Below, piece by piece: positions 91-63,455 of a DNA stretch of 64,000 nucleotides (positions are counted from its first letter, which is position 1; each line of letters begins with the position of its first letter). Position numbers and translations under genes: made by a program. The notes under the pieces were generated by a model. It had not been told where the DNA came from and did no database searches. It saw only the letters and a list, made by a program, of their open reading frames with translations. The stretch comes from a bacterium (lineage in GTDB: Bacteria; Patescibacteriota; Microgenomatia; Curtissbacterales; GWA2-41-24). Where the stretch lies: the NCBI GenBank assembly GCA_021813945.1, contig JAKAJD010000001.1:73744-137743 (forward strand), in the 5' to 3' direction.

Positions 91-1014
91 ATGGATAAAG
101 TTCTCATAACAGGTGGATCTGGGTTTATAGGTTCTAATCTAGCCAATTATTTGTATGACCTTGGAACAAAAGTTTATGTAATAGACGATTTATCCAAAGG
201 GAAAAAAGAATATTTAAAAAAAGGTATTCAATTAGAAGTAACAGACATCGCTTCAAACAAAGCAATCGACTTTATCAAGAAGGTTAAACCAGAATTCATT
301 GTCCACTTAGCTGCGCAATCGAATCAAGAAATATCATTTAAGAATCCGAAAGCTGATTTAGAAAAAAACTTCTTTCCCATTGCAAAAATCACTGAGGTGG
401 CTTCTCAAATCAAAGTCAAAAAATTTGTTTTTTCCTCCTCGGCAGCAATTTATGCAGAAACAGAAAATGTTCCGATAGACGAGTTGTCGAAAAAAGAGCC
501 AACATCCCCCTACGGGGTCAGTAAGCTTTGCTCGGAATATTATCTTAACTTTGCGGGCAAACACTATAACTTGCCATATATTACTCTAAGATTTTCAAAT
601 GTTTACGGAGAAAATCAAGATTCGACCGCAGAAGGAGGTGTGGTTGCAATTTTTATCCTAAAAGCCATAAAAGGTGAAAAAATAACAATTTTCGGCAGTG
701 GTGAGCAAACCAGGGATTTTATATATGTAAAAGACGTCATCGATCTAATATATAGGTCTATGAATTCTCAACTTAAGGGGGAATTTAACGTCGGAACATC
801 CAGGGAGACATCTATTAATACATTATCAAATCTTATATTAAAAATTACGAATAAAAAACTTTCTGTTCAGTACGAAAAAAATCGGAACTTTGGCGTAAAG
901 CGAAACGCCCTTTCCAATCAAAAAATCTATCGGCATCTAAATTGGAAGCCTAAAATCTCCCTAGAGACTGGTTTAAATTTAACGGCAAATTTTTTTAAGG
1001 TTAGATCATCGTGA
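91..1014 (+). CDS. NAD-dependent nucleotide-sugar epimerase/dehydratase (extended SDR, GalE-like)
   Basis: N-terminal Rossmann motif VLITGGSGFIGSNL and catalytic YxxxK (PYGVSKLCSE). Length 307 aa. ATG at 91. Confidence 0.8.
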   Translation: MDKVLITGGSGFIGSNLANYLYDLGTKVYVIDDLSKGKKEYLKKGIQLEVTDIASNKAIDFIKKVKPEFIVHLAAQSNQEISFKNPKADLEKNFFPIAKITEVASQIKVKKFVFSSSAAIYAETENVPIDELSKKEPTSPYGVSKLCSEYYLNFAGKHYNLPYITLRFSNVYGENQDSTAEGGVVAIFILKAIKGEKITIFGSGEQTRDFIYVKDVIDLIYRSMNSQLKGEFNVGTSRETSINTLSNLILKITNKKLSVQYEKNRNFGVKRNALSNQKIYRHLNWKPKISLETGLNLTANFFKVRSS

Positions 1015-1700
1015 AGGTTTTAATAATTATTCCCGCCTATAATGAACAAAAATCGATAGGAGATGTCTTAGACCGCCTAATAAAAGTAAGACTAGAAGGT
1101 GCCGAAAGGGAAATTATAGTAGTCAACGATGGTTCTACAGACAGAACTGCCAAGGAGGTATCAAAAAGAAATGTACCAATTCTAAATCATGTAATAAATA
1201 GAGGACTCGGCGGTGCTCTTCAAACAGGGTTTGAATATGCCAGGAGAGTTAAACCTGACTACATAGTGACAATCGACTCAGACGGTCAACACAATCCCCA
1301 AGACATAGAAAAACTGATAAAGCCGCTTTTAGGAGGTCACGCAGACGTTGTTATTGGATCACGTATGCTCCAGAATCAAAAAATGCCATTGGATCGAAAA
1401 ATAATAAATCACCTTGCAAATATAGTTACATTTTTGCTTTGGTCTATCTGGATAACCGACAGTCAATCCGGCTTAAGGGCTTTCACGATGAAAGCAGTCG
1501 AAAAAATTAACATCAAAACAAACAGGATGGAAGTTTCAAGCGAATTGATAAAGGAAATCGGCAAAAATCACCTAAGGGTGGCGGAAGTACCTATTAGCCC
1601 GATTTACACTACCTACTCTAGGAGCAAAGGGCAAAAAAATGCAAATGCATTAAATATTTTAGTAAAATTACTTATACATAAATTTGCAGACATAAAATGA
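1011..1700 (+). CDS. GT2 glycosyltransferase, short DPM1/GtrB/ArnC-like polyprenyl-phosphate sugar synthase
   Basis: IIPAYNE ... VVNDGSTD ... DSDGQH (DXD) motifs. 229 aa. GTG start overlapping the upstream stop (GTGA). Confidence 0.8.
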   Translation: MKVLIIIPAYNEQKSIGDVLDRLIKVRLEGAEREIIVVNDGSTDRTAKEVSKRNVPILNHVINRGLGGALQTGFEYARRVKPDYIVTIDSDGQHNPQDIEKLIKPLLGGHADVVIGSRMLQNQKMPLDRKIINHLANIVTFLLWSIWITDSQSGLRAFTMKAVEKINIKTNRMEVSSELIKEIGKNHLRVAEVPISPIYTTYSRSKGQKNANALNILVKLLIHKFADIK

Positions 1701-2050
1701 TAATCACAAAGATACTGATCACAGGTTTTGTTATTTTTGCTCTTTCCAGAGTGATACTTCGCTTCAAGGAGGGTAAAATATCATTCGTTGGTTTGCTTGG
1801 TTGGCTTTTGCTTTGGGGAACTATAGAAGTTATTGTATGGGCCCCTAAAATAACAACTGATTTTGCCAAAATATTCGGAATTGGTAGAGGTGTAGACCTT
1901 ATAATCTATGGCTCAATCGTTTCTATTTTCTACCTTATTTTCAGAATTTACGTAAAATTCGAAGACATGGAAAGACAAATTACGGAAGTTGTAAAAGCAA
2001 TTGCTTTAAAAAAGGTATCCAATAAACCTGTCCAAAAATCTTCTAAATGA
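1697..2050 (+). CDS. small 3-TM membrane protein (DUF2304/GtrA-like candidate partner of the preceding GT2)
   Basis: 117 aa with three hydrophobic helices (ILITGFVIFALSRVIL, FVGLLGWLLLWGTIEVIVWA, LIIYGSIVSIFYLIF). ATGA-coupled to the GT2 at 1011. Confidence 0.5.
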   Translation: MIITKILITGFVIFALSRVILRFKEGKISFVGLLGWLLLWGTIEVIVWAPKITTDFAKIFGIGRGVDLIIYGSIVSIFYLIFRIYVKFEDMERQITEVVKAIALKKVSNKPVQKSSK

Positions 2051-3174
2051 AAATTCTGCTAGTTACGGAATTTTTCCCTTCGGGGAATGATTTTAAATTT
2101 TCTGGAGGAGTAGAGGCAAGAACATTTTTTGTGGCCAAGCATCTATCTAAAAAGCATCAGGTTACAATCATAACTAGTCGTCTTTTTGGGACTCCAAAGG
2201 AAGAAATTAGGCTAGGGTTTAAAATAATAAGAGTTGGAAATTCGAGAAAGTACAAAGCCACGACAGGAAGCGTAATTAGTCGGTTAAAGTTTATATACGA
2301 TGTAATTCGAGAAGCCAAAAACAATTCATTTGATATAGTTGAAGGTACAAATTTTATCACGCACTTTATCGCCAAAAGGATATCAGTTCAGCAAAAAATT
2401 CCTGTAGTTTTTTGGTACCCAGATGTATGGGTTGGATCATGGATTAAAAATGCTGGCCTCACAGGAATTTTTGGCGAAATCTTAGAAAGGGTAAATATTT
2501 TATCTCAAGCTGATTGTTACATAGCAATTTCTCAAACAACGGCAAATAAATTAAAAAACAAAGTAAGTAACAAAGTAAATATAATCTACTGTGGTGTTGA
2601 TCAAAATGAATTTGTTGCTAAATACAAAAAGTTTCCTAATCCAACTCTCATTTGTGTTTCAAGACTAGCGAAGTATAAAAACACTAAAACTCTTATCTTT
2701 GCATTTGCATATCTCAGAAAAAAAATCAAAAATCTAAATCTTTTACTCGTAGGAAACGGACCCCAGAAAAAAGCTTTAGTTTCTTTATCTAAAGCTTTAA
2801 ATGTAGAAAACCATGTGAAATTTGTTTCTAACATCCCGAGAAAAGAATTAATCAAACTTTATAAATCGTCGCATGTATTTTCTCTACCGAGCCACGTAGA
2901 AGGTTTTGGAATTGCTACTATAGAAGCAGCTGAATCTGGTCTGCCTTATGTTAACAGTGATATAGAAATTCAACGGGAGATCACACAAAATTCGAAAGGT
3001 GGTTTTTTAGTAAATCCTAACGAACCGCTTATGTTTGCAGAAAAATTTGAAGATTTATTAAATAACAAGACCCTATATTCGAAAAAATCGCAAGAAGCAA
3101 AATTACTAGCCAAAAGTTATAGATGGGATCAAATAGCCAAGCAAACTGAATCAGTTTATAAATCTCTCTTATGA
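2047..3174 (+). CDS. GT-B fold glycosyltransferase (GT4 family)
   Basis: C-terminal EX7E-type motif EGFGIATIEAAESGLPYV. ATGA overlap with the upstream gene. Confidence 0.8.
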   Translation: MKILLVTEFFPSGNDFKFSGGVEARTFFVAKHLSKKHQVTIITSRLFGTPKEEIRLGFKIIRVGNSRKYKATTGSVISRLKFIYDVIREAKNNSFDIVEGTNFITHFIAKRISVQQKIPVVFWYPDVWVGSWIKNAGLTGIFGEILERVNILSQADCYIAISQTTANKLKNKVSNKVNIIYCGVDQNEFVAKYKKFPNPTLICVSRLAKYKNTKTLIFAFAYLRKKIKNLNLLLVGNGPQKKALVSLSKALNVENHVKFVSNIPRKELIKLYKSSHVFSLPSHVEGFGIATIEAAESGLPYVNSDIEIQREITQNSKGGFLVNPNEPLMFAEKFEDLLNNKTLYSKKSQEAKLLAKSYRWDQIAKQTESVYKSLL

Positions 3175-4261: not shown

Positions 4262-5038
4262 ATGGTACAGGCTCCACTAACACCTTCAAGATACGACTCA
4301 ACAGAATTTCTAAAAAAAAGGTTACAACCTATTTTAAAGAGGAATCAAAAAATTATGGATGTTGGTTGTGGTAAATTATTTTTTCTGGATTTTATATTGA
4401 AAACTAAAAAAAAGATAAATTATTTTGGAATAGACATAAGCCCGAAAACAAATATTAAATTCAAAAAAAATATTAAAGGCAAAATAGTAAAAAAAAGCAT
4501 TTTATCTTTTAATTCAAATAAAAAATTCGATTTAATTGTTTGTTTATGGGTATTAGAGCATATCGAGAATGATATGATCGCACAAAAAATAATGATCAAG
4601 CATTTAAAAAGTAACGGTTATCTTATTATCGCAGTGCCGAGCATATGGACCTGGCCTTTTGAGTTCGGCAGACACGGTTTCCATTATTATTCCTTAGAAG
4701 CAATAAAAAAAATTTCCACAAAAGAAGGCCTCGCCATAAAAGAAACATACAGGGCGGGTGGTCTATTTGGCTTACTTTTTACACTGGCATATAATTGGCC
4801 AAGATTTGTCATTTTAGTTGTGTGTTTTCCTGTATATAAATTTCTTTCATCAACAAAAATCATTTCAACTCCTTGGTCAGAATTTTCAAAAAAAGTTATA
4901 GATTCAACCTGGTATAGATATCATAAGAATCCACAATTAGTTAATTTGCATAATCGGATTGTTAAGGCAATTGTTAGACTAGATAATAGGATAAAAATTT
5001 TTCCGCAAAGTTACATTATAATATTCCAGAAGCCATGA
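4262..5038 (+). CDS. class I SAM-dependent methyltransferase with hydrophobic C-terminal segment
   Basis: SAM motif I IMDVGCGKLFF. Acidic post-I motif FDLIVCLWVLEH. C-terminal stretch AGGLFGLLFTLAYNWPRFVILVVCFPVY looks membrane-embedded. Confidence 0.7.
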   Translation: MVQAPLTPSRYDSTEFLKKRLQPILKRNQKIMDVGCGKLFFLDFILKTKKKINYFGIDISPKTNIKFKKNIKGKIVKKSILSFNSNKKFDLIVCLWVLEHIENDMIAQKIMIKHLKSNGYLIIAVPSIWTWPFEFGRHGFHYYSLEAIKKISTKEGLAIKETYRAGGLFGLLFTLAYNWPRFVILVVCFPVYKFLSSTKIISTPWSEFSKKVIDSTWYRYHKNPQLVNLHNRIVKAIVRLDNRIKIFPQSYIIIFQKP

Positions 5039-5838
5039 AAGGACCTAAAATTAGTGTCATTTTGTCAGTTTATAATGGCATGCCCTTTCTAAAATATGCT
5101 GTAGAAAGCATCCTTAAACAAACATATAGCAACTTTGAATTCATTATAGTTAACGACGCATCAAATGACGGAACTTTAAAATATCTCAAGAGCTTAAAAG
5201 ACAAGCGCATCAAAATTATCACTAATCAAAAAAATCTCGGCCTTGCGGCTTCTTTAAACAAAGCACTTTCAATCGCGAAAGGAGAATATATTGCTCGTAT
5301 GGATGCGGATGATATAAGTCTTCCAAACAGGTTTAAAACTCAAGTTGAATATCTACGCGCAAATCCTGAAGTCAGCCTCTGTGGCTGCTGGGTTGATCTT
5401 ATAGACAAGAATGGAAAAGTCATTGGAGAAAAAAGATATCCTGCAAATGACTTAGAATTAAAAAACGCCCTCAAATGGTATCAGCCAATTGTTCACCCAA
5501 CTTTTATGGCAACAAAGAAATTCTATAAAAGTTTAAATGGATATGACACTCAGTTTGATTATGCGGAAGATTATGAACTCTTATCAAGGGCAATCAAAAA
5601 TAATAAATTTGCAAACATCCCATCGAAATTATTTTTATGGAGGCTAGCAAATGATAGGAGATCAAGAAGATATATGAGAAACATAGATATTGCTGACTAT
5701 AAAGTAAAACTTAAAATCCTAAAAGAAAATTACTTTGGAAAATTGTATATCCTATATGTATTTAAAAAATTCATCACAACCTTTTTAATCCCTATTGAGT
5801 TAAAAATGTTTATCGCAAAAAAATTTAAACTTGCGTGA
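5035..5838 (+). CDS. GT2 glycosyltransferase
   Basis: SVILSVYNG ... FIIVNDASNDGT ... ARMDADD motifs. Confidence 0.8.
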   Translation: MKGPKISVILSVYNGMPFLKYAVESILKQTYSNFEFIIVNDASNDGTLKYLKSLKDKRIKIITNQKNLGLAASLNKALSIAKGEYIARMDADDISLPNRFKTQVEYLRANPEVSLCGCWVDLIDKNGKVIGEKRYPANDLELKNALKWYQPIVHPTFMATKKFYKSLNGYDTQFDYAEDYELLSRAIKNNKFANIPSKLFLWRLANDRRSRRYMRNIDIADYKVKLKILKENYFGKLYILYVFKKFITTFLIPIELKMFIAKKFKLA

Positions 5839-10250: not shown

Positions 10251-10277
10251 ATTTTGCCTGAAGCTATTATCAGTGGA

Positions 10278-18055: not shown

Positions 18056-18085
18056 TTGCCTAATTATAGTATCTTTACATATAAG
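18056..18085 (+). promoter_or_regulatory. candidate sigma70-like promoter for the formyltransferase gene (TTGCCT-N18-TATAAG)
   Basis: TTGCCT at 18056-18061, 18-nt spacer, TATAAG at 18080-18085, about 23 nt upstream of ATG 18109. The minus strand of the same 53-bp divergent gap carries a TATAAT 7 nt upstream of ATG 18055. Confidence 0.3.
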
Positions 18086-18108
18086 ATATTGTAAAATATC
18101 GAGAATTA

Positions 18109-43092: not shown

Positions 43093-43227
43093 TAACTTAT
43101 TTACCCAACAGTCTACACAAATCAAATCCTCTAAATCAACGATAAGAATTTTAGCTTGTATTAATTAGTTTGGGGAACTTTAAAATAGTAGAAACGCAAA
43201 TTTTTAAATTGTATACTTCTACGTGTA

Positions 43228-51897: not shown

Positions 51898-51926
51898 GAA
51901 ACAGTCTTTACGAATTTGAATAATGA
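51878..51926 (+). repeat. tandem 20-bp direct repeat (TTTACGAATTTGAAaAATGA / TTTACGAATTTGAAtAATGA) spanning a gene junction
   Basis: Copy 1 (51878-51897) is the last 20 nt including the TGA stop of the GT-C gene. Copy 2 (51907-51926) contains the ATG (51923) of the next methyltransferase gene. 19/20 identical with a 9-nt spacer. Confidence 0.7.
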
Positions 51927-56555: not shown

Positions 56556-58092
56556 CGACCACATACTTGAATACCTGAGCTTTGCGCTTTTAATTTTTAT
56601 CCCCTTATACCCGAAACTCCCTCTTGCCGATCTCATTCGAGGGTACATTGTGCGTTTGAGGTTAGACGATATTTTAGTTGCTTTTGCATTTGCTATTTGG
56701 ATAATTTGGCTTTTGAGGAAAAAAGTTTCTCTTAAAGGAAATCCTCTCTTTGTACCGATGGCTATTTACATCATTGTCGGTTTTATATCTTCACTTTCTG
56801 CAATTTTTATAACCAAAACTGTGCCCTTTCAGCTGATCCATATGGAAAAGCTGTTTTTAAACTACGGACGAAGAATCGAATATTTTTCCGTTTTTTTCGT
56901 TTTCTTTTCTTCCATAAAATCACTCGAGCAAATTAAAAAATATGTATATGTCGCAGCTGTAGTCTTGCTTTTGGTTTCGATTTACGGATTTGGTCAAAAA
57001 TATCTTTACTGGCCTGCTTTTTCAACCATGAATAGGGAATTTTCCAAAGGTATCGTTCTTTATCTAACGCCTCACGCCAGGGTCCTTTCAACTTTCGGAG
57101 GCCATTATGACCTTGCCGCATATTTAGTCGTAGTTTTAACACTTTTTATTCCACTCATTTTCGTAGTCAAAAAAATCTGGGTAAAATTCGCTCTAGCTTT
57201 AATTTCATTTTCCGGTTTTTGGCTTTTGATACTAACCGTTTCAAGGACTTCGTTTCTTGCTTACCTTGCATCAATTACAATTGCCTTTCTTATTCTTGCG
57301 ACGAAAAAAAGCTGGAAGTGGTCACTTATTCATTGGATTGTCGTAATCTTTATTTCGCTTGGAATTATGCTTTCATTTGGAGATTTGTCGCAACGTTTCT
57401 CACACGTCTTAAAATTGGATGCCATTAAAAACACGGCACTTTCTCCTATCAAAAAAGAATTGCCTTCCGGCAAAAATGTAGCTTTTCTAGATATTGGCTC
57501 AAATTCCGACATGCCACCAACCACAGTTAAACCGGGGTCAACACCGCAACCTGGGCAAAAACCATCCGATGTTTACAAAGAAGTTCCTCTCTACGGTACT
57601 CAATCTGGAACATATGCTGCAATTCCGAGGGTTTATTCTCAAAATGCGGTTTCTTATGACCTTTCAACCGGAATCCGCCTTGACTATACATGGCCTCATG
57701 CCATTGCCGGTTTTGAGAAAAATCCGCTTCTAGGCTCCGGCTATTCAACGCTTCAAAAAAGTAATATTGAAACTTTCACAGAAGCCGAATCTACCGATAA
57801 TGATTTCCTGAGAGCACTGGGTGAAACGGGCCTTTTGGGCTTTCTTAGCTTCTTTGGAATCATTGCCCTGGTTTGCTATTTGGGACTTCGGGATTTTGGC
57901 AAAATCGACAATCTCTTTTATGCAACCATAGTTGCCGCTATTTCTGCAGGGATTATTGGCCTTCTTGTAAACGGTATTCTAATTGATGTTTTTGAAGCCT
58001 CAAAAGTGGCTTATATTTTGTGGATTATGGCGGCTATATTGCTAGCAACTGTTAAGTTGGCCACACGCCAGCCTAAAACGTCCAAAACGTGA
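56530..58092 (+). CDS. O-antigen ligase/polymerase-family (Wzy_C-like) membrane protein
   Basis: Many TM helices. TVSRTSFLAYLASI (the SR..L motif of Wzy_C). A large loop ends in NPLLGSGYST...DNDFLRALGETGLLGFL, which resembles the NPLFGxGxG...HNxYLqxlxExGxxG pattern of O-antigen ligases. AAGGAG lies 13 nt upstream of ATG 56530; the track start is TTG 56518. Confidence 0.55.
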   Translation: MSKLLKWLDDHILEYLSFALLIFIPLYPKLPLADLIRGYIVRLRLDDILVAFAFAIWIIWLLRKKVSLKGNPLFVPMAIYIIVGFISSLSAIFITKTVPFQLIHMEKLFLNYGRRIEYFSVFFVFFSSIKSLEQIKKYVYVAAVVLLLVSIYGFGQKYLYWPAFSTMNREFSKGIVLYLTPHARVLSTFGGHYDLAAYLVVVLTLFIPLIFVVKKIWVKFALALISFSGFWLLILTVSRTSFLAYLASITIAFLILATKKSWKWSLIHWIVVIFISLGIMLSFGDLSQRFSHVLKLDAIKNTALSPIKKELPSGKNVAFLDIGSNSDMPPTTVKPGSTPQPGQKPSDVYKEVPLYGTQSGTYAAIPRVYSQNAVSYDLSTGIRLDYTWPHAIAGFEKNPLLGSGYSTLQKSNIETFTEAESTDNDFLRALGETGLLGFLSFFGIIALVCYLGLRDFGKIDNLFYATIVAAISAGIIGLLVNGILIDVFEASKVAYILWIMAAILLATVKLATRQPKTSKT

Positions 58093-59528
58093 AGAAGTTT
58101 GAAATTATCCTTTTGATTTTTATTTTATCGATTGCTTTTGCAGTCAGGTTATATAAAATTAACCGGCCAATTGCCGATTGGCATTCTTGGCGTCAGGCAG
58201 ACACCGCTGCTGTTTCCCGCAACTTCATAAAGGAGGGCTTCAACCCTTTGATCCCAACATATGATGACATGTCCTCTCAAACAAATGGTCTCGATAATCC
58301 CAACCGCTATCGCTTTGTGGAATTCCCAATCTATAACATTTTGATTGCTGCGGTCTGGTCGGTGACAGGGATAAACGTAACCTACGCCAGGCTAGTAACA
58401 GTAGTAATCACGCTTTTGTCTACTGGCCTTCTCTATCTTTTAGTTCGAAAATTCTCAGGAGTTATGGTTGCTGCGCTCTCTTCTTTTTTCTTTGCCACAA
58501 TTCCCTATAACGTTTTCTACTCATCCACAATTCTTCCTGCACCTCTTATGGTTATGTCAGTTTTGGCTTTGTATCTTTCATTTTCTAACTGGCTGGAAAA
58601 CGAAAAAAGCTTTCTCTGGGCAGCACTTTCCGTAATCTTCGCCAACGTCGCAATTTTGGTTTGGCCGATTGCCCTTTTTTTCATGTTGCCTATTATCTAC
58701 TTAACTTTTCAGAAGCATGAATTTGGAGCTATCAAAAAGCTTAATCTCTGGCTTTTTGCAATTTTGTCTTTGCTGCCATTTCTTTTCTGGAGAGCCTGGA
58801 TGACCAAATTCCCTGCCGGTATTCCAAGCTGGCAATTTTTAATAAATGAAGGCAACATCCGTTTTAAAGGCGCATTTTTTAGATGGTTAATTGCCGAAAG
58901 GTTTGGAAATTTAATCTTAACCGTTGGAGGCTTCTCTCTCTTTATTTTGGGTTTAGTTAGAAAACCAGAGACCAAAGAAAAGTTTTTTTACTACAGTTGG
59001 CTAGCCTCTGTCGCTTTTTATTTCACCGTTTTCGCGTCCGGAAATGTCAGGCACGACTATTATCAAATTCCTACTGTTCCAATTCTTGCAATTTTTATGG
59101 CTCTTGGCGTCAAGTTTTTGGTGGAAAAACCGAAAGAGTATTTCAACAAATACGTTGGAATCTTAGCCGCTGTAGTTTTGGTGCTTTTTATGTATGCATT
59201 CGGCTTTTACGAGGTACAAGGTCATTATTGGATCAACCGCCCTCAAATAATAGAAGCCGGTCAGGCTGCCGATCGTATTTTGCCCAAAAATGCGACCGTG
59301 ATTGCTCCCTATAACGGCGATACCGCCTTTCTTTATCAAACGAACCGCCACGGTTACCCGGTCGTAGACAGATCACTTTCAGATTTTGTGAAAAATGGAA
59401 CAGATTACCTAGTGTCCGTTGATGTTGCAGACGCCGGAATTGCCAACCTTGCCAAAAACTGCCGAACTCTAGAAAAAACTTCAGACTATGTAATCATTCA
59501 GTTAAGCCTTGATTGTGTTGGTAAGTAG
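58089..59528 (+). CDS. GT-C membrane glycosyltransferase, ArnT/PMT_2-like
   Basis: HSWRQADTAAVSRNF after the first helix. About 11 TM helices plus a soluble C-terminal ~110 aa. GTGA-coupled start. Confidence 0.5.
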   Translation: MKKFEIILLIFILSIAFAVRLYKINRPIADWHSWRQADTAAVSRNFIKEGFNPLIPTYDDMSSQTNGLDNPNRYRFVEFPIYNILIAAVWSVTGINVTYARLVTVVITLLSTGLLYLLVRKFSGVMVAALSSFFFATIPYNVFYSSTILPAPLMVMSVLALYLSFSNWLENEKSFLWAALSVIFANVAILVWPIALFFMLPIIYLTFQKHEFGAIKKLNLWLFAILSLLPFLFWRAWMTKFPAGIPSWQFLINEGNIRFKGAFFRWLIAERFGNLILTVGGFSLFILGLVRKPETKEKFFYYSWLASVAFYFTVFASGNVRHDYYQIPTVPILAIFMALGVKFLVEKPKEYFNKYVGILAAVVLVLFMYAFGFYEVQGHYWINRPQIIEAGQAADRILPKNATVIAPYNGDTAFLYQTNRHGYPVVDRSLSDFVKNGTDYLVSVDVADAGIANLAKNCRTLEKTSDYVIIQLSLDCVGK

Positions 59529-59530: not shown

Positions 59531-60724
59531 ATGAAAGTTTTAATGATTACACCATACTTGCCATACCCCCTGGTTTCCGGCGGTCAAATTAGAACCTACA
59601 ACCTTCTCAAAAACCTTTCTCAAAAACACGAAATAACACTTGCTTCCTTTATCCGCGACCCGCAAGAAGAAAATTACCTCAAGGAGCTAAAACCTTATTG
59701 CAAAAAGGTAATCCTTTTCAAAAGAAGAAAAGCTTGGTCGCCCTTAAATATCATGCTTTCAGCGGTAACTCCTTATCCTTTTTTAGTCAGTATTTATTAC
59801 GGAATCTCCGTCAAGAACCAAATCCAAAAGGAGCTGGAAACACAAAACTATGATCTCATCCACGCCGAAACTTTCTATGTCATGCCAAATATTCCCAAAA
59901 CTAAAGTACCCATTCTTCTTGTGGAACAAGTAATCGAGTATCTTGTTTATCAAAGGTTTGTCGAAAGCCTTCCAAAATATGCTGCCCCCCTAAAACTGCC
60001 GCTTATGTTTGATGTCGCCAAAATAAAAATCTGGGAAAGAACCTATTGGAAAAAAGCCAAACGCCTTGCGGCAATGTCCGAAGAGGACAAGAAATTTATT
60101 CTCAATTTCGACAAAAGCCTAGAAGTAGATGTTGTTGCAAACGGTGTTGACGTCGATTTCTTCACGAAAACCAAAAAAGAAAAAACAAAATACCCAACCG
60201 TTCTTTTTGTGGGTAATTTTAAGTGGCTTCCAAACAGGGATGCTACAAAGTTTTTGGTAGAAGAAATTTGGCCCAAAATTTTAGAAAAAATGCCAGATGC
60301 CCGGCTTTGGATAGTGGGCCGCAATCCACCAAAAGATATCCTTGCCTACTCAAATGAAAATATCAACGTGGATCAAAATGTAGAAGATATAAGAGCAGCT
60401 TACGGAGCCAGTGATGTTCTTTTGGCACCGATTCGAAACGGCCGGGGGACAAAATACAAAATTTTGGAGGCTATGGCAACCAAAACCCCAATTGTTGGAA
60501 CTCGCCTAGCTATAGAAGGCATCAATGTCGAAAATGGCAGGGAAGCTTACGTTGCGTCAAGTGCTGAAGATTTAGCGCAAAAAACGGTGGAGGTTTTGAA
60601 AAATCCTCAAATTGGCAAAAAGCTGGCAGAAAATGCCTATAGCCTCGTTGCCAAAGACTACAACTGGCCAAAGATTTCGGCAAAACTCGATGAGGTATAT
60701 AGAAAAGTTGGTCAAAACCTATGA
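59531..60724 (+). CDS. GT-B fold glycosyltransferase (GT4-like)
   Basis: C-terminal GTKYKILEAMATKTPIVGT. VLFVGNFKWLPNRDA. Confidence 0.7.
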   Translation: MKVLMITPYLPYPLVSGGQIRTYNLLKNLSQKHEITLASFIRDPQEENYLKELKPYCKKVILFKRRKAWSPLNIMLSAVTPYPFLVSIYYGISVKNQIQKELETQNYDLIHAETFYVMPNIPKTKVPILLVEQVIEYLVYQRFVESLPKYAAPLKLPLMFDVAKIKIWERTYWKKAKRLAAMSEEDKKFILNFDKSLEVDVVANGVDVDFFTKTKKEKTKYPTVLFVGNFKWLPNRDATKFLVEEIWPKILEKMPDARLWIVGRNPPKDILAYSNENINVDQNVEDIRAAYGASDVLLAPIRNGRGTKYKILEAMATKTPIVGTRLAIEGINVENGREAYVASSAEDLAQKTVEVLKNPQIGKKLAENAYSLVAKDYNWPKISAKLDEVYRKVGQNL

Positions 60725-61611: not shown

Positions 61612-62732
61612 AAATCGGTATAGATGCTCGTTTTGTTGGCCCTGAAGGAACAGGCCTTGGCAAATACACCGAAAAGCTTATCGAAAATCTTCAAAAAATC
61701 GACTCCGTTAATGAATATGTCATTTTTCTTAGGCAATCAAACTGGTCTTATCTAAATTTAAAAAATAAAAACTTCCAAAAAAAATTAGCAGATGTACCGT
61801 GGTACTCGGCAGAAGAACAGCTTAAAATGCCGGCAATTTACATGTCCCAAAATTTGGATCTTTTGCATGTTCCCCATTTCAATGTGCCGTTTCTATATCG
61901 AAAAAAATTTATTGTTACAATTCACGATTTAATCCACCACCATTTTTCGCAAGAATCTACAACGACAAGAAATCCGCTTATGTTTAAGATCAAAAGATTG
62001 GGGTATAAATCTACGATTGCAAACGCTATCAAAAGATCCCAAAAAATAATTGTCCCCTCAAACTTCGTCAAAAATGAAATCATATCAACTTTTAAGATCG
62101 ACTCCCAAAAAGTTGTTGTCACTTACGAAGCGGCCGAAGAAGAGTACTTTCAAAAGTCAAAAGTCAAAATTCACTTTTCGCAAGAAAACTTGCTCAAAGC
62201 AAGCAAGTCAAAACATGATCAGCTACTTTACGTCGGAAACGCTTATCCGCACAAGAATCTAAATAAGCTGCTGAACGCTATGATGTTTCTTGATCTAAAA
62301 CTTACGATAGTTTCACCACGAAACGTTTTTTCAAAAAGACTTGAGCATGAAGTTAAAAATCGAAGTCTTGATGAAAAGGTGAAAATTACACCTTACCAAG
62401 AACCTTCAGAACTTGTTAAAATCCTAAGATCGAGCGAGGCATATGTTTTCCCCTCCCTTGCCGAAGGGTTTGGCATACCGGGTCTAAACGCTATGGCAGC
62501 AGGTATTCCAGTCGTCGCCGCCAATATCCCAACACTTAAAGAAATCTATGGCGATGCCGCGGTTTATTTCGATCCCCAAGATGCTAATGACATTGCCGAA
62601 AAAATTAAATCAGTTACATTGTCATCTAAAAAAGCAGAGGACTTAATCAAAAAAGGTTTTTACCAAGCCAAAAAATACTCTTGGCTTAAAATGGCCAAAG
62701 AAACACTTGCTGTCTATAACAGTTTAAAATAA
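61608..62732 (+). CDS. GT-B fold glycosyltransferase (GT4 family)
   Basis: AEGFGIPGLNAMAAGIPVVAANIPTLKEIY. N-terminal MKIGIDARF. Confidence 0.8.
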   Translation: MKIGIDARFVGPEGTGLGKYTEKLIENLQKIDSVNEYVIFLRQSNWSYLNLKNKNFQKKLADVPWYSAEEQLKMPAIYMSQNLDLLHVPHFNVPFLYRKKFIVTIHDLIHHHFSQESTTTRNPLMFKIKRLGYKSTIANAIKRSQKIIVPSNFVKNEIISTFKIDSQKVVVTYEAAEEEYFQKSKVKIHFSQENLLKASKSKHDQLLYVGNAYPHKNLNKLLNAMMFLDLKLTIVSPRNVFSKRLEHEVKNRSLDEKVKITPYQEPSELVKILRSSEAYVFPSLAEGFGIPGLNAMAAGIPVVAANIPTLKEIYGDAAVYFDPQDANDIAEKIKSVTLSSKKAEDLIKKGFYQAKKYSWLKMAKETLAVYNSLK

Positions 62733-62741
62733 AATTGCCAA

Positions 62742-63455
62742 ATGCCAAAAGAAATCTTAATTGCCAAAAACATTACAAGGGAAGGTCCTGGTCTTATAGA
62801 AGAGGTGCTTCAGGAAGAAAGTTTACCTTATCGCATAGTTGATTTAAGCCAGGGTCAAGCAATTACTGCGCAAGACTCTTTTGATATCTTAGTTGTTATG
62901 GGAGGGCCAGATAGTGCAAATGACAAAACGCAAAAGATGCAGGCCGAGATCCAATCTGTTGAAGAAGCAATTAAATCCGGGAAACCATTTCTTGGTGTCT
63001 GTTTGGGCCTGCAGGTTATGGTAAAGGCAATGGGTGGGGAAGTAGTAAAAGGCAGCGCTCCAGAAATCGGTTTTCGAAGTCAATCCGGTGGTTTTAACGC
63101 AATAAATCTGACGATAGATGGAAAAAACGACCCTCTTTTCACCGGGCTTGGCTCAACTTTTCGAGTTTTTCACCTCCATGGGGAAACTGTTAATTTAACG
63201 CCCCAAATGAAACTTTTGGGAACCGGACGCGACGTAGACAATCAAATAGTTAGAGTAGGCACCAAAGCTTACGGAATCCAATGCCATTTTGAGCTCACAG
63301 GCGAAATGTTGGAAACTTGGCTTGCGCAGGATGATGATTTAAAAGCACAAGACCAGGGGCAAATAAGGTCCGATTTTGCAGCCAACCGGGCGAAATATAC
63401 CCAAGTCGGAAAAAAACTTGTCAGAAACTTTTTGGAAATTGCCCAAGCAGCTTGA
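62742..63455 (+). CDS. class I (type 1) glutamine amidotransferase-like protein
   Basis: Nucleophile elbow GVCLGLQVM and His/Glu pair IQCHFE of the GATase1 triad. Confidence 0.65.
   Translation: MPKEILIAKNITREGPGLIEEVLQEESLPYRIVDLSQGQAITAQDSFDILVVMGGPDSANDKTQKMQAEIQSVEEAIKSGKPFLGVCLGLQVMVKAMGGEVVKGSAPEIGFRSQSGGFNAINLTIDGKNDPLFTGLGSTFRVFHLHGETVNLTPQMKLLGTGRDVDNQIVRVGTKAYGIQCHFELTGEMLETWLAQDDDLKAQDQGQIRSDFAANRAKYTQVGKKLVRNFLEIAQAA

What the first reader, a model, noticed from the sequence alone, without database searches (positions are those of the whole stretch)
91..63455. About 63 kb of contiguous glycan-assembly genes with an unusually high density of GT-C enzymes
Nearly every one of about 60 genes encodes a glycosyltransferase, sugar-nucleotide modifying enzyme, tailoring enzyme or transporter:
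- 11 GT4-like and 9 GT2 enzymes.
- About 15 large polytopic GT-C-type membrane proteins.
- 2 Wzx-like flippases and an O-antigen-ligase-like protein.
- Methyl-, acetyl- and formyl-transferases.

Five short DPM1-like GT2 enzymes (1011, 21878, 30009, 35722, 44459) would make polyprenyl-phosphate monosaccharides. The many GT-C enzymes would consume them outside the membrane. This logic is normally associated with protein O-mannosylation, mycobacterial LM/LAM or archaeal/eukaryotic lumenal glycosylation rather than classical O-antigen assembly.

The AT-rich, SD-poor, PIG-V/PMT_2-rich repertoire suggests a small-genome uncultivated bacterium. In such an organism this is a very large investment in one surface glycoconjugate, possibly an S-layer or pilin glycan or a wall glycopolymer. 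The structure and acceptor are unknown.
Basis: partly seen in the sequence, partly recalled or inferred. Interest (0 to 1): 0.7.

Follow-up and report, generated by a model that had tools for sequence, protein, structure and literature searches.

The report
Giant surface-glycan gene island in Curtissbacteria
A tiny-genome, uncultivated bacterium (Candidatus Curtissbacteria) spends at least 8% of its ~1 Mb genome on one gene island that appears to build cell-surface sugars largely outside the membrane, using about 20 membrane glycosyltransferases, several from unnamed families.

Summary
Of 60 ORFs, 58 have glycan-related assignments:
- 11 GT4 plus 1 further GT-B enzyme, and 9 GT2.
- 14 GT-C-type membrane proteins.
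- 2 MOP (Wzx-like) flippases and 1 Wzy_C protein.
- 5 methyl-, 3 acetyl- and 1 formyl-transferase.
- 5 SDR sugar-nucleotide enzymes and 3 DegT aminotransferases.

The six large ORFs with no Pfam hit are all polytopic. Two fold as GT-C (AlphaFold plus Foldseek), and four link to GT-C paralogs by profile or BLAST.

The five short GT2s have no TM helix. Their best matches are polyprenyl-phosphate sugar synthases (DPMS, ArnC, GtrB, PpgS, AglJ).

The window lies inside a 975,962-bp contig. Independent assemblies reproduce most of it at ≥99.99% identity in the same gene order, so it is not chimeric. The organism is Curtissbacteria-like.

The island runs past both window edges, for at least 82 kb. 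The flanks add six GT-Cs, an SMR-like candidate flippase and a Bac_transf phosphoglycosyltransferase.

Best reading: a polyprenyl-PP-based cytoplasmic assembly line, plus at least five three-component extracytoplasmic glycosylation modules in which several GT-Cs share each donor, as in mycobacterial LM/LAM. The acceptor and product are unknown. This is a new variant of a known kind.

The parts
91..1014 (+). SDR sugar-nucleotide epimerase/dehydratase (module 0)
   Evidence: Pfam Epimerase 187 bits. GalE-like and RmlB-like hits fall below equivalog cut-offs.
1011..1700 (+). Short TM-less GT2, polyprenyl-P-HexNAc synthase-like (PpgS/GacI/DPMS-like)
   Evidence: NCBIfam PpgS 168 bits over the full length. 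Best PDB match is DPMS 5mlz at 1e-18, then ArnC and GtrB. No TM helix.
1697..2050 (+). DUF2304 small 3-TM protein, GacJ/Rv3632-like activator of the adjacent GT2
   Evidence: Pfam DUF2304 75.8 bits. 3 TM. GacJ is a DUF2304 protein and stimulates GacI; Rv3632 stimulates PpgS (10.1101/180810).
2047..3174 (+). GT4 glycosyltransferase
   Evidence: Glycos_transf_1 133.7 bits
3171..4259 (+). GT4 glycosyltransferase
   Evidence: Glycos_transf_1 133.7 bits
4262..5038 (+). SAM methyltransferase
   Evidence: Methyltransf_23/11
5035..5838 (+). GT2 (EpsE/SpsA-like), functional partner of the next gene
   Evidence: Glycos_transf_2 122 bits. EpsE 146 bits. Best PDB match is chondroitin synthase/SpsA. 47% identical to the GT2 domain fused to a g5835 homolog in P0043.
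5835..7391 (+). GT-C-fold membrane glycosyltransferase, no Pfam/NCBIfam family
   Evidence: 8 TM. AF2 pLDDT 90, pTM 0.90. Foldseek top 24 hits are all GT-C (STT3 2e-7, ALG9, PglB, AglB, ArnT, DPY19, AftA). Invariant PEPDD after TM1.
7388..8506 (+). GT4 glycosyltransferase
   Evidence: Glycos_transf_1 121 bits
8484..10250 (+). GT-C-fold membrane glycosyltransferase, unmodelled family
   Evidence: 11 TM. AF2 pLDDT 85, pTM 0.87. Foldseek: PglB 2e-7, AftA, DPY19, STT3, ArnT. The family has 2,208 representatives. Some members are fused to a DPMS/ArnC-like GT2.
10254..11528 (+). GT4 glycosyltransferase
   Evidence: Glycos_transf_1 133.6 bits
11525..12598 (+). GT4 glycosyltransferase
   Evidence: Glycos_transf_1 78.5 bits
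12677..13537 (+). SAM methyltransferase
   Evidence: Methyltransf_23/11
13541..14602 (+). GT4 glycosyltransferase
   Evidence: Glycos_transf_1 71 bits
14592..16046 (+). GT-C (PMT_2-like, marginal)
   Evidence: PMT_2 25.6 bits against a cut-off of 26.1. 8 TM.
16048..17055 (-). FAD-dependent oxidoreductase, role in sugar modification uncertain
   Evidence: DAO 54 bits, NAD_binding_8. No specific NCBIfam.
17057..18172 (-). GT-B-type glycosyltransferase (Glyco_trans_1_2 only)
   Evidence: Glyco_trans_1_2 104 bits. Gene callers use a 332-aa start.
18109..19044 (+). Formyltransferase-like (amino-sugar N-formylation candidate)
   Evidence: Formyl_trans_N 30.6 bits. Weak hits to fmt, the ArnA N-terminus and dTDP-4-amino-4,6-dideoxyglucose formyltransferase.
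19060..20322 (-). MOP/Wzx-family flippase (module A)
   Evidence: Polysacc_synt 45.9 bits. 7 TM. Adjacent to a GT-C and a short GT2.
20304..21881 (-). GT-C (PMT_2) of module A
   Evidence: PMT_2 41.5 bits. WDE motif after TM1.
21878..22573 (-). Short TM-less GT2, polyprenyl-P-sugar synthase-like (module A)
   Evidence: Best NCBIfam hits are AglJ at 106.6 bits, dolichyl-P hexose transferase and PpgS. No TM helix.
22552..23517 (-). SDR (GDP-L-fucose-synthase-like reductase/epimerase)
   Evidence: Epimerase 180 bits. Fcl 210 bits, below cut-off.
23495..24700 (-). DegT-family sugar aminotransferase/dehydratase
   Evidence: DegT_DnrJ_EryC1 326 bits. RfbH-like and PseC-like, below cut-offs.
24780..25517 (+). 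Short NDP-sugar-dehydrogenase-like protein
   Evidence: UDPG_MGDP_dh 23.8 bits. NDP-sugDHase 47.8 bits.
25524..26099 (+). GNAT acetyltransferase
   Evidence: Acetyltransf_10/1/7
26096..27937 (-). GT-C (PMT_2/PMT) of module B
   Evidence: PMT_2 37.6 bits, PMT 25.4 bits. 14 TM. GDE motif after TM1.
27934..29070 (-). DegT sugar aminotransferase (module B)
   Evidence: DegT 327 bits
29033..30016 (-). SDR dehydratase/epimerase (module B)
   Evidence: Epimerase 146 bits
30009..30788 (-). Short TM-less GT2, ArnC-like polyprenyl-P-aminosugar synthase candidate (module B)
   Evidence: NCBIfam ArnC 88 bits, PgfS 86 bits. Best PDB match is ArnC 9hwj at 4e-22, then GtrB.
30722..31675 (-). SDR, GalE-like 4-epimerase
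   Evidence: GDP_Man_Dehyd 211 bits. GalE 205 bits against a cut-off of 262.
31668..33011 (-). GT-C, GT87 family
   Evidence: GT87 33.2 bits. 11 TM.
33008..33649 (-). SAM methyltransferase
   Evidence: Methyltransf_11 83.7 bits
33646..34605 (-). SDR, NDP-hexose 4,6-dehydratase or UDP-GlcA decarboxylase-like (module C)
   Evidence: RmlB 143 bits, ArnA C-terminus 112 bits, both below cut-offs.
34602..35735 (-). dTDP-4-amino-4,6-dideoxygalactose transaminase (module C)
   Evidence: NCBIfam NF008687 397.3 bits, above the equivalog cut-off of 375.
35722..36441 (-). Short TM-less GT2, polyprenyl-P-sugar synthase-like (module C)
   Evidence: PgfS 61 bits, ArnC 53 bits. No TM helix.
36451..37722 (-). 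GT-C-like membrane protein, Curtissbacteria family without a Pfam model (module C)
   Evidence: At least 200 homologs. Invariant FFAQDDF and HWRP. hhalign 96% against the PMT_2 paralog profile.
37649..39343 (+). DUF2142 polytopic membrane protein (assigned to the Pfam GT-C clan from memory)
   Evidence: DUF2142 78 bits. 11 TM. PDE motif after TM1.
39330..39884 (+). Hexapeptide O-acetyltransferase (WcaF-like)
   Evidence: Hexapep. WcaF family 87 bits.
39884..40459 (+). SAM methyltransferase
   Evidence: Methyltransf_23 63 bits
40437..42032 (+). GT-C-like membrane protein (no Pfam)
   Evidence: 8 TM. BLAST 6e-5 to PMT_2 protein g50464. YDE motif after TM1.
42010..43125 (-). PIG-V-like (GT76-type) GT-C
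   Evidence: BLAST 3e-21 to the flank Mannosyl_trans2 protein. 6 TM.
43228..44475 (+). MOP/Wzx-family flippase (module D)
   Evidence: Polysacc_synt 61 bits. MOP flippase family.
44441..45184 (+). Short TM-less GT2, GtrB/PgfS-like synthase (module D); likely ATG start at 44459
   Evidence: PgfS 87.7 bits, dolichyl-P hexose transferase 59.8 bits. 32% identical to the GT2 domain of GT2-GT-C fusion P0239.
45159..46568 (+). GT-C-like membrane protein (no Pfam) (module D)
   Evidence: 9 TM. BLAST 9e-9 to g14592.
46547..48484 (+). YfhO-family GT-C (module D)
   Evidence: YfhO 54.7 bits. YfhO works with CsbB in lipoteichoic acid glycosylation (PMC5836110).
48557..49624 (+). GT4 glycosyltransferase
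   Evidence: Glycos_transf_1 82.8 bits
49628..50464 (+). GT2 (EpsD-like chain-building type)
   Evidence: Glycos_transf_2 121 bits. EpsD 84 bits.
50464..51897 (+). GT-C (PMT_2)
   Evidence: PMT_2 66.2 bits. LDE motif after TM1.
51923..52666 (+). SAM methyltransferase
   Evidence: Methyltransf_11 29.9 bits
52650..53888 (+). GT4 glycosyltransferase
   Evidence: Glycos_transf_1 121 bits
53898..54986 (+). GT4 glycosyltransferase
   Evidence: Glycos_transf_1 132 bits
55065..55661 (+). Hexapeptide O-acetyltransferase (WcaF-like)
   Evidence: Hexapep 54 bits. WcaF family 101 bits.
55665..56555 (+). GT2 (rhamnosyltransferase/EpsD-like)
   Evidence: Glycos_transf_2 78 bits.
56518..58092 (+). Wzy_C-family polymerase/ligase-like membrane protein
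   Evidence: Wzy_C 46.2 bits. 11 TM.
58089..59528 (+). GT-C (PMT_2)
   Evidence: PMT_2 27.2 bits. The block 58089-62732 is conserved in two Curtissbacteria MAGs.
59531..60724 (+). GT4 glycosyltransferase
   Evidence: Glyco_trans_1_4 89.5 bits
60721..61611 (+). GT2
   Evidence: Glycos_transf_2 88.9 bits
61608..62732 (+). GT4 glycosyltransferase
   Evidence: Glycos_transf_1 103 bits
62742..63455 (+). Class-I glutamine amidotransferase; sits inside the island but its role is uncertain
   Evidence: GATase 79 bits. Glycan genes resume downstream.

Best explanation
The window is the central 64 kb of a surface-glycan island at least 82 kb long, in a Candidatus Curtissbacteria (Microgenomates, CPR) genome of about 1 Mb. 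Two kinds of machinery are interleaved in it.

**1. A cytoplasmic lipid-linked assembly line.** A Bac_transf phosphoglycosyltransferase and a ManC-like nucleotidyltransferase lie just right of the window. Twelve GT-B and four chain-building GT2 enzymes, with methyl- and acetyl-transferases, would build oligosaccharide on polyprenyl diphosphate. A MOP flippase would export it and a Wzy_C-family protein would polymerise or ligate it.

**2. At least five 'three-component' extracytoplasmic glycosylation modules.** In each module:
- Sugar-nucleotide tailoring enzymes make a specialised NDP-sugar. These are an SDR dehydratase/epimerase with or without a DegT aminotransferase, with formyl- and acetyl-transferases nearby. 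In three modules the product is probably a 4-amino(-6-deoxy) sugar.
- A TM-less GT2 of the DPMS/ArnC/GtrB/PpgS type loads that sugar onto polyprenyl monophosphate. In one module a DUF2304 GacJ-like subunit assists it.
- A MOP or SMR-like protein flips the lipid.
- One or more GT-C enzymes transfer the sugar to the growing glycan on the outer face of the membrane.

The window holds 14 GT-Cs (20 with the flanks) but only 5-6 donor synthases. Each donor is therefore probably used by several GT-Cs of different linkage or acceptor specificity, as in the mycobacterial LM/LAM/arabinogalactan relay.

**Shown:** family and fold assignments, gene adjacency, natural GT2-GT-C fusions, contig integrity, taxonomy and conservation in relatives.

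**Inferred:** donor identities, flippase substrates, topology, and the number and nature of the products and acceptors.
For: - Family census.
- All six no-Pfam large ORFs are polytopic.
- g8484 and g5835 give confident AF2 models. Their significant Foldseek hits are exclusively GT-C enzymes.
- g36451, g5835 and g8484 score 94-96% by hhalign against the local PMT_2 profile, aligned over the N-terminal module.
- g40437, g45159 and g42010 match GT-C paralogs by BLAST.
- Most of the GT-Cs carry an acidic pair 5-15 residues after TM1.
- The short GT2s best match DPMS, ArnC and GtrB structures and the PpgS, AglJ, ArnC and PgfS models. The control GT2 g5035 does not.
- g1011 is followed by a DUF2304 gene, as in GacI/GacJ and PpgS/Rv3632.
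- Both MOP genes abut a short-GT2 plus GT-C pair.
- An SMR/EamA-like 122-aa protein and a PIG-V-like GT-C lie just upstream of g91-g1697.
- Rosetta-stone fusions: g8484-family GT-Cs are fused to GT2 domains most similar to the window's short GT2s, and a g5835-family member is fused to a g5035-like GT2.
- g34602 passes the equivalog cut-off for dTDP-4-amino-4,6-dideoxygalactose transaminase.
- The PGT, NTP-transferase, DUF4012 and RecO genes lie in the right flank, and that core is conserved in six Curtissbacteria MAGs.
- Syntenic islands of about 60 kb or more occur in two related genomes, with module-level differences.
- All paralog pairs within the window are ≤37% identical (the closest flank pair is 41.5%), so the enzymes have diverged in specificity and are not recent duplicates.
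Against: - No biochemical data exist, and the acceptor and product are unknown.
- Modules B and C have no adjacent flippase.
- All NCBIfam hits to characterised synthases fall far below equivalog cut-offs, so donor sugars cannot be named.
- g5035, fused elsewhere to a GT-C, looks like a conventional chain-building GT2. The clean split between 'synthase' and 'chain-building' GT2s may therefore be too simple.
- No chain-length regulator, LCP ligase, S-layer, pilin or sortase-substrate gene was seen in the 84 kb examined.
- Four of the six no-Pfam GT-C calls rest on profile or BLAST similarity limited to the N-terminal ~110-290 residues. TM-rich sequences can inflate such scores.
- The left boundary of the island was not reached.
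Confidence: 0.7

Rival explanations
1. The GT-C enzymes mainly glycosylate proteins such as S-layer proteins, pilins or other secreted proteins. They would act as PMT-like O-glycosyltransferases or STT3/PglB-like oligosaccharyltransferases, rather than building a polysaccharide or lipoglycan.
For: - Several GT-Cs hit PMT/PMT_2, and three flank paralogs also hit STT3.
- The best Foldseek matches of g5835 and g8484 are STT3, PglB and AglB.
- Wzy_C is also the family of PglL/PilO O-oligosaccharyltransferases (from memory).
- CPR bacteria are described as having elaborate surfaces rich in type IV pili (PMC8080830).
Against: - No protein in the window or flanks carries the WWDxG motif of oligosaccharyltransferases.
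- No MIR domain was reported for any PMT-like protein.
- PMT scores are marginal (20-25 bits).
- No candidate acceptor gene lies within the 84 kb.
- Foldseek TM-scores of 0.4-0.57 indicate a shared GT-C fold, not orthology.
- Twenty GT-Cs with 5-6 donors fit stepwise polymer building and branching better than single-sugar protein modification.
Confidence: 0.2
2. The island is not one system. It is a co-located collection of several independent pathways, for example a wall polysaccharide, a lipoglycan and a protein glycan, that accumulated in a recombination-prone 'glycan hotspot' next to a conserved PGT-DUF4012 core.
For: - The window has ten strand-switch blocks.
- There is a module-level indel relative to the JGI 1.08-Mb relative.
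- Three of six related MAGs have unrelated DNA immediately upstream of the conserved core.
- The variable part has a GC of 0.30-0.38, against 0.40-0.42 in the conserved flank.
- A sensor kinase, a hydrolase and a GATase separate the main body from the PGT core.
Against: - Only one PGT and one Wzy_C protein were seen across 84 kb, which argues against many complete independent polyprenyl-PP pathways.
- Most modules are syntenic across three genomes.
- This rival concerns the number of products, not the mechanism, so it is compatible with the main explanation.
Confidence: 0.35
3. The SDR, DegT, GT2 and GT-C cassettes are Arn-like resistance systems. They would add cationic amino-sugars to membrane lipids or phosphates to reduce surface charge, rather than take part in glycan synthesis.
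For: - g30009's best PDB match is ArnC.
- ArnB-like aminotransferases, an ArnA-C-terminus-like SDR and a formyltransferase-like gene are present.
- The GT-Cs belong to PMT_2, the family that includes ArnT.
Against: - All Arn equivalog scores are far below cut-off: ArnC 88 against 529, ArnA 112 against 777, ArnB 208 against 631.
- No ArnD-like deformylase was detected.
- g34602 is an equivalog of a dTDP-4-amino-4,6-dideoxygalactose transaminase, not of ArnB.
- The cassettes are embedded among 21 cytoplasmic GTs.
- A lipid A acceptor is not expected in this lineage (inference; not tested here).
Confidence: 0.1
4. The finding is an artefact. Either the large membrane proteins are generic permeases or Wzy polymerases, or the 64 kb is a chimeric assembly of smaller loci.
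For: - Six large ORFs have no Pfam or NCBIfam hit.
- GC rises across the window.
Against: - The fold and profile evidence is GT-C specific. Transporters appear only at probability below 0.2 in the Foldseek lists.
- Independent assemblies from at least six samples match the window at 99.99-100% identity with the same gene order, covering all but about 4.3 kb of it (fetch limits). Each of the four genes looked up across the window lies on 0.2-1 Mb contigs in four sets of assemblies.
- The window contains no repeat of 40 bp or more.
- Related genomes are syntenic.
Confidence: 0.02

Closest known systems
GacI/GacJ/GacK/GacL of Streptococcus pyogenes (GlcNAc side chain of the group A carbohydrate) and PpgS/Rv3632/Rv3779 of M. 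tuberculosis
   Same: A TM-less GT2 makes polyprenyl-P-HexNAc. A DUF2304 small membrane partner is encoded immediately downstream. The system includes a Wzx-family flippase and a GT-C transferase. g1011 with g1697 reproduces the GT2-DUF2304 pair, and PpgS is g1011's top NCBIfam hit.
   Different: g1011 scores 168 bits against the PpgS equivalog cut-off of 370. The partner GT-C here is PIG-V-like and the candidate flippase is SMR-like. The acceptor is unknown. This is one of at least five modules rather than a stand-alone side-chain system.
Three-component / multi-component transmembrane glycosylation systems (GtrA/B/V; CsbB/GtcA/YfhO; Citrobacter ORF15/14/12 with GT136)
   Same: The logic matches: a polyprenyl-P-sugar synthase, a flippase and a GT-C that is genetically linked to them. 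Module D contains a MOP flippase, a GtrB/PgfS-like GT2 and a YfhO-family GT-C.
   Different: The synthases here lack the C-terminal TM helices of GtrB, CsbB and ArnC (no TM helix). Flippases are MOP-type or absent rather than GtrA-type. There are several GT-Cs per synthase. Many modules are concentrated in one island of a ~1 Mb genome.
Mycobacterial/corynebacterial LM, LAM and arabinogalactan assembly (Ppm1 with PimE/MptA-C; DPA with Emb/Aft)
   Same: Many GT-C enzymes draw on a few polyprenyl-P-sugar donors to elongate and branch a glycan outside the membrane. A GT87-family member is present (g31668). AftA, AftB, AftD and EmbB are among the fold matches.
   Different: No orthology was shown. 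No PRPP/DPA pathway genes were found. The genes here are clustered, whereas in mycobacteria they are dispersed. Amino- and deoxy-sugar tailoring dominates. The lineage and envelope are unrelated.
Arn (L-Ara4N lipid A modification) pathway
   Same: The order of chemistry is the same: SDR oxidation/decarboxylation or dehydration, DegT transamination, optional N-formylation, GT2 transfer to undecaprenyl-P, then a PMT_2-family GT-C. g30009's best structural relative is ArnC.
   Different: All Arn equivalog cut-offs are missed by wide margins. No ArnD was found. One aminotransferase is a WecE-type equivalog instead. A lipid A acceptor is not expected.
Wzx/Wzy-dependent O-antigen/capsule loci
   Same: The locus has a PGT (in the flank), many GT4 and GT2 enzymes, a MOP flippase, a Wzy_C protein, acetyl- and methyl-transferases, and lower GC in the variable part.
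   Different: No Wzz/PCP or export machinery was seen. There are 14-20 GT-Cs, where a typical locus has none or one. The size is at least 82 kb, against a typical 10-30 kb.

Membership tests
Three-component extracytoplasmic glycosylation system | GT2 polyprenyl-phosphate sugar synthase | tested here: met
   Five TM-less GT2s rank with PpgS, AglJ, ArnC, PgfS and dolichyl-P hexose transferase, and with the DPMS, ArnC and GtrB structures. Control GT2s do not. This is homology only; activity was not tested.
Three-component extracytoplasmic glycosylation system | Dedicated flippase for the polyprenyl-P-sugar | tested here: inconclusive
   MOP flippases adjoin modules A and D. An SMR/EamA-like 122-aa protein adjoins module 0, at 22.3 bits against a cut-off of 23.7. 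Modules B and C have none adjacent. Flippase substrates are unknown.
Three-component extracytoplasmic glycosylation system | GT-C-fold transferase genetically linked to the synthase | tested here: met
   Each short GT2 lies within 0-3 genes of a GT-C. GT2-GT-C fusions exist in the g8484 and g5835 families.
Three-component extracytoplasmic glycosylation system | Defined acceptor glycoconjugate modified after export | not testable with these tools
   No acceptor can be identified from sequence.
GT-C superfamily (for the six ORFs without a Pfam hit) | Polytopic membrane domain of about 8-13 TM helices | tested here: met
   6-11 hydrophobic segments by a Kyte-Doolittle scan. The AF2 models of g5835 and g8484 are helical bundles with a C-terminal mixed alpha/beta domain.
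GT-C superfamily (for the six ORFs without a Pfam hit) | GT-C fold | tested here: met
   For g5835 and g8484, all Foldseek hits with probability ≥0.9 are GT-C enzymes. They rest on hhalign at 96% (g36451) or on BLAST to paralogs.
GT-C superfamily (for the six ORFs without a Pfam hit) | Conserved acidic motif in the first extracytoplasmic loop | tested here: met
   g5835 has PEPDD with D46 invariant. g36451 has QDD with D30 and D31 invariant. g8484 has invariant D64 and E69. g40437 has YDE. g42010 and g45159 lack an obvious acidic pair.
GT-C superfamily (for the six ORFs without a Pfam hit) | Match to a curated GT-C sequence family (Pfam, NCBIfam or a PDB sequence) | tested here: not met
   No hits were found. 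By sequence these are unmodelled families.
Oligosaccharyltransferase STT3/PglB/AglB | WWDxG catalytic motif in the C-terminal domain | tested here: not met
   A regex scan of all window and flank proteins found none.
Protein O-mannosyltransferase (GT39 PMT) | PMT domain above threshold, plus MIR domains in loop 5 | tested here: not met
   The PMT model reaches threshold only for g26096 (25.4 against 22.7). No MIR domain was reported for any protein.
Arn (Ara4N) pathway | ArnA/B/C/D/T orthologs at equivalog level | tested here: not met
   ArnC 88 against 529, ArnA 112 against 777, ArnB 208 against 631 bits. No polysaccharide-deacetylase-type ArnD appears in the Pfam results.
Wzx/Wzy-dependent pathway | Initiating phosphoglycosyltransferase | tested here: met
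   Bac_transf 197.8 bits at L002 17191-17841, about 7.7 kb right of the window end. There is none inside the window.
Wzx/Wzy-dependent pathway | Wzx flippase and Wzy polymerase | tested here: inconclusive
   Two Polysacc_synt proteins and one Wzy_C protein are present. Context suggests the MOP proteins may serve the three-component modules instead. Whether the Wzy_C protein is a polymerase or a ligase is undetermined.
Wzx/Wzy-dependent pathway | Chain-length regulator (Wzz/PCP) | tested here: not met
   No Wzz or GNVR hit appears in the window or flank Pfam results. A DUF4012 protein of unknown role sits next to the PGT.

The most novel reading that the evidence does not exclude
Curtissbacteria, and perhaps many Microgenomates, may build their main envelope glycopolymer chiefly on the outer face of the membrane. 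A LAM-like relay of about 20 GT-C enzymes would be fed by at least five different polyprenyl-phosphate (amino/deoxy) sugar donors. The relay would include at least three GT-C families that no current database model recognises. This would be an undescribed class of CPR surface glycoconjugate, taking at least 8% of a ~1 Mb genome, and a plausible determinant of host-cell attachment or phage evasion.
Probability: 0.3. Interest if true: 0.8.

Novelty: new variant of a known kind. Interest (0 to 1): 0.6.

Why it matters
**Biology of CPR bacteria.** CPR/Patescibacteria are ultra-small, mostly episymbiotic bacteria with minimal metabolism. Published genome papers say only that they carry 'many glycosyltransferases' and have an elaborate surface (PMC5220378 counts 20 glycosyltransferases in a whole Parcubacterium genome; PMC8080830). 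Here a single island holds about 46 glycosyl-transfer enzymes, 20 of them GT-C. Its explicit modular logic can be tested biochemically.

**Hypothesis it supports.** It gives a concrete hypothesis for how a wall-bearing CPR bacterium decorates its surface: extracytoplasmic, donor-lipid-driven assembly.

**Enzyme discovery.** It flags new GT-C families as candidates for CAZy classification. One has about 2,200 cluster representatives and no model. It also provides natural GT2-GT-C fusions as pairing evidence.

**Comparative use.** Module-level variation between related genomes suggests the island behaves as a serotype-like locus. That bears on host recognition and phage pressure.

Tried and rejected
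**Searches that found nothing**
- Sequence profiles of the g5835, g8484 and g36451 families against PDB sequences gave no meaningful hit.
- NCBIfam found nothing for eight of ten membrane proteins.
- Six of the eight literature searches run looked for CPR/Microgenomates/Curtissbacteria together with glycosyltransferase or GT-C terms. They found no paper describing such islands. Only general remarks turned up.
- The tRNA and repeat scans were empty.
- The listing of cluster members gave no organism or protein names.

**Limits reached**
- Foldseek against afdb50 was unavailable.
- The left boundary of the island could not be reached.

**Readings rejected**
- Chimeric assembly.
- Permease or transporter identity for the large membrane proteins.
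- Canonical oligosaccharyltransferase, because there is no WWDxG motif.
- Canonical PMT, because there are no MIR domains.
- A true Arn pathway, because equivalog cut-offs are missed.
- Recent tandem duplication as the source of the GT-C richness. Paralogs within the window are ≤37% identical, and the closest flank pair is 41.5%.

Full report
**Observation.**
The window has 60 tightly packed ORFs, with coding density about 100%. Of 50 same-strand junctions, 35 overlap or abut. Pfam scans of all 60 gave:
- 11 Glycos_transf_1 (GT4) proteins and one further GT-B (Glyco_trans_1_2 only, 17057-18172).
- 9 GT2 proteins.
- 8 proteins in GT-C families: PMT_2 at 14592 (25.6 bits, just under the 26.1 cut-off), 20304, 26096, 50464 and 58089; GT87 at 31668; DUF2142 at 37649; YfhO at 46547.
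- 2 Polysacc_synt/MOP flippases (19060, 43228) and 1 Wzy_C protein (56518).
- 5 methyltransferases, 3 acetyltransferases and 1 formyltransferase-like protein.
- 5 SDR epimerase/dehydratases and 3 DegT aminotransferases.
- One FAD oxidoreductase, one short NDP-sugar-dehydrogenase-like protein, one DUF2304 protein, a GATase and a hydrolase fragment.

Shine-Dalgarno cores are not enriched upstream of the genes: 5 of 60, against 7% of random 17-mers.

**The large ORFs without any family hit.**
Six ORFs (5835, 8484, 36451, 40437, 42010, 45159) matched nothing in Pfam or NCBIfam. All are polytopic, with 6-11 hydrophobic segments.
- g8484 has only 12 relatives by the word-indexed search. An exhaustive profile search found 2,208 cluster representatives. 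Its AlphaFold model is confident (pLDDT 85, pTM 0.87). Its significant Foldseek hits are exclusively GT-C enzymes: PglB, AftA, DPY19, STT3 and ArnT.
- g5835 has 37 relatives. It gave pLDDT 90 and pTM 0.90. Its top 24 hits are STT3, ALG9, PglB, AglB, ArnT, DPY19 and AftA.
- g36451 belongs to a Curtissbacteria-rich family of at least 200 members. It has invariant FFAQDDF and HWRP motifs. It scores 96% by hhalign against a profile of the local PMT_2 paralogs. The g5835 and g8484 families score 94%.
- g40437 and g45159 match PMT_2-type paralogs by BLAST. g42010 matches the flank PIG-V-like protein at 3e-21.
- Most of the GT-Cs carry an acidic pair 5-15 residues after TM1.
- None has the WWDxG motif of oligosaccharyltransferases.

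So the window holds 14 GT-C-type proteins.

**The short GT2 enzymes.**
The five 229-259-aa GT2s have no TM helix.
- Their top NCBIfam hits are polyprenyl/dolichyl-phosphate sugar synthases: PpgS at 168 bits over the full length for g1011, AglJ for g21878, ArnC/PgfS for g30009 and g35722, and PgfS for g44441.
- The other four GT2s hit EpsE, EpsD and rhamnosyltransferase types.
- Against solved structures, g1011 is closest to Pyrococcus DPMS (5mlz), then ArnC and GtrB. g30009 is closest to ArnC.
- The control g5035 is closest to chondroitin synthase and SpsA, with no DPMS, ArnC or GtrB in its list.
- g1011 is followed by a DUF2304 gene. GacJ is a DUF2304 protein that complexes with and activates the GlcNAc-P-undecaprenol synthase GacI. 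The homolog Rv3632 stimulates PpgS (10.1101/180810).
- All scores are well below equivalog cut-offs, so the family-level role is supported but donor sugars cannot be named.

**Modules.**
Gene order resolves into repeated cassettes.
- *Module 0* straddles the left edge: a flank PIG-V-like GT-C and an SMR/EamA-like 122-aa protein (22.3 bits), then SDR g91, GT2 g1011 and DUF2304 g1697.
- *Module A* (minus strand, 24700 to 19060): DegT, SDR, GT2, PMT_2 GT-C, MOP flippase.
- *Module B* (33649 to 26096): methyltransferase, GT87, SDR, GT2 (ArnC-like), SDR, DegT, PMT_2 GT-C.
- *Module C* (37722 to 33646): GT-C g36451, GT2, DegT, SDR. The DegT passes the equivalog cut-off for dTDP-4-amino-4,6-dideoxygalactose transaminase (397 against 375).
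- *Module D* (43228 to 48484): MOP flippase, GT2, GT-C g45159, YfhO.

This is the three-component scheme of synthase, flippase and GT-C. It is described for O-antigen, rhamnan and teichoic-acid glycosylation, including examples that use MATE or Wzx-family flippases (PMC11127046; 10.1101/180810; PMC5836110 and PMC8035078).

Independent support comes from natural fusions.
- Three g8484-family proteins carry an N-terminal GT2 domain. That domain is most similar, over its full length, to the window's short GT2s.
- A g5835-family protein is fused to a GT2 that is 47% identical to the neighbouring g5035.

The rest of the window looks like cytoplasmic assembly and tailoring of a lipid-linked glycan. 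It consists of GT4 and GT2 enzymes, methyl- and acetyl-transferases, Wzy_C and further GT-Cs.

**Context.**
Exact-protein look-ups place the window at about 409.4-473.4 kb of a 975,962-bp contig, ena:ERZ27237587:k141_182599.
- Contigs from at least six other assemblies match the window at 99.99-100% identity with the same order. The fetched pieces cover all but about 4.3 kb of it. Each of the four genes looked up across the window lies on 0.2-1 Mb contigs in four sets of assemblies.
- There are no repeats of 40 bp or more and no tRNAs. Chimerism is excluded.

The island continues on both sides.
- Upstream lie at least four tandem PMT/PMT_2 GT-Cs (two of them also hit STT3; the first is cut by the end of the fetched flank), a GT2, a GT4, a PIG-V-like GT-C and the SMR-like protein.
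- Downstream lie a hydrolase, another PMT_2 GT-C, an unknown 226-aa protein, a sensor kinase, a GT4, a ManC-like nucleotidyltransferase, a Bac_transf PGT (198 bits), a DUF4012 protein and RecO.
- From the left end of the data to RecO is 82.3 kb, or 8.4% of the contig. This span holds 20 GT-Cs and about 46 glycosyl-transfer enzymes.

**Taxonomy and conservation.**
- The DUF4012 protein is 62-85% identical to proteins of Candidatus Curtissbacteria MAGs. The GT4, NTP-transferase, PGT, DUF4012 and RecO core is syntenic in all six hits.
- The 58089-62732 block is conserved in two of them. The others have unrelated DNA in that position.
- A JGI 1.08-Mb contig carries a syntenic island of at least 59 kb. 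It matches the first ~16 kb of the window and modules C, A and D, but lacks the 25524-33649 block.
- Curtissbacteria GCA_030647775.1 has the island about 30-70 kb from its PGT core.
- A Microgenomates MAG shows similar cassettes of GT2, large membrane protein, SDR and DegT.
- All paralog pairs within the window are ≤37% identical (the closest flank pair is 41.5%), so the richness is ancient diversification, not recent duplication.
- The variable part has lower GC (0.30-0.38) than the conserved right flank (0.40-0.42).

**Interpretation.**
The best-supported mechanism has two parts:
1. A polyprenyl-PP-based cytoplasmic assembly line.
2. At least five donor-lipid modules whose products are used outside the membrane by many GT-Cs.

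The ratio of 14-20 GT-Cs to 5-6 synthases implies that several GT-Cs share each donor, as in mycobacterial LM/LAM/AG assembly. This is analogy, not orthology.

Alternatives considered:
- Mainly protein glycosylation (confidence 0.2).
- Several independent products in a hotspot (0.35). This is compatible with the mechanism.
- Arn-like charge modification (0.1).
- Artefact (0.02).

The acceptor, donor sugars, flippase substrates and left boundary remain unknown.

**Novelty.**
All component types are known. What is new is the scale and concentration in a ~1 Mb CPR genome, the triple amino-sugar cassettes with TM-less synthases and MOP flippases, and several GT-C families that lack any curated model. 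I found no paper describing this. The literature only notes that glycosyltransferases are abundant in CPR genomes. I rate it a new variant of a known kind, with interest about 0.6.

Noticed in passing
window 8484-10250 and homologs P0211, P0239, P0284, P0179: The g8484 family has 2,208 cluster representatives and no Pfam or NCBIfam model. It includes natural fusions to an N-terminal DPMS/ArnC-like GT2 domain (three representatives) and to a GT4 domain (one). A weak DUF6798 hit appears in its C-terminal part. It is a candidate new CAZy GT-C family.
   Followed up: partly
window 5035-7391 and P0043: The EpsE/SpsA-like GT2 g5035 and the GT-C-fold g5835 are fused into one 738-aa protein in another metagenome, with 47% identity in the GT2 part. 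A GT2 that looks like a conventional chain-building enzyme may therefore also work directly with a GT-C.
   Followed up: partly
window ~52000-64000 and L002 11260-20714: GC steps up from 0.30-0.38 in the variable island to 0.40-0.42, with a single-gene peak of 0.47 at 55065-55661. The higher-GC part coincides with the blocks conserved in other Curtissbacteria.
   Followed up: partly
L005 9621-9989 (just left of the window): A 122-aa membrane protein has sub-threshold SMR (22.3 against 23.7 bits) and EamA hits. It sits between a PIG-V-like GT-C and the SDR/GT2/DUF2304 genes. It is a candidate ArnE/F- or Rv3789-like polyprenyl-P-sugar flippase.
   Followed up: partly
L002 17845-19659 (right flank): A 604-aa DUF4012 protein sits immediately after the PGT and is strictly syntenic in six Curtissbacteria MAGs. 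Its function is unknown. It could be a chain-length or assembly factor, or an acceptor.
   Followed up: no
L024 (JGI 3300027819, 1.08-Mb contig) against window 25524-33649: The related genome lacks the GNAT, module B, GT87 and methyltransferase block but keeps the neighbours in order. This is a module-sized indel, consistent with serotype-like variation.
   Followed up: partly
L016, L017 (CAZEDQ010000003.1, CAYHKI010000026.1): Two MAGs titled 'uncultured Gammaproteobacteria bacterium' carry the Curtissbacteria-type GT4, NTP-transferase, PGT, DUF4012 and RecO synteny at 57-86% protein identity. Their taxonomic labels are probably wrong.
   Followed up: no
window 18109-18172 and 37649-37722: Divergent ORF pairs overlap at their 5' ends only because the mechanical ORF list takes the most upstream TTG or GTG. 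Gene callers in other assemblies use shorter versions (332 aa; 334 or 522 aa).
   Followed up: yes
L002 13069-14872 (right flank, minus strand): A HisKA/HATPase sensor kinase sits next to an unannotated 226-aa protein, inside the glycan island. It may regulate surface-glycan expression.
   Followed up: no
L025 15418-15783 (Curtissbacteria GCA_030647775.1): A 23S_rRNA_IVP-family (four-helix-bundle) gene is inserted between the DegT and SDR genes of the module C homolog in a relative. It is absent from the window.
   Followed up: no
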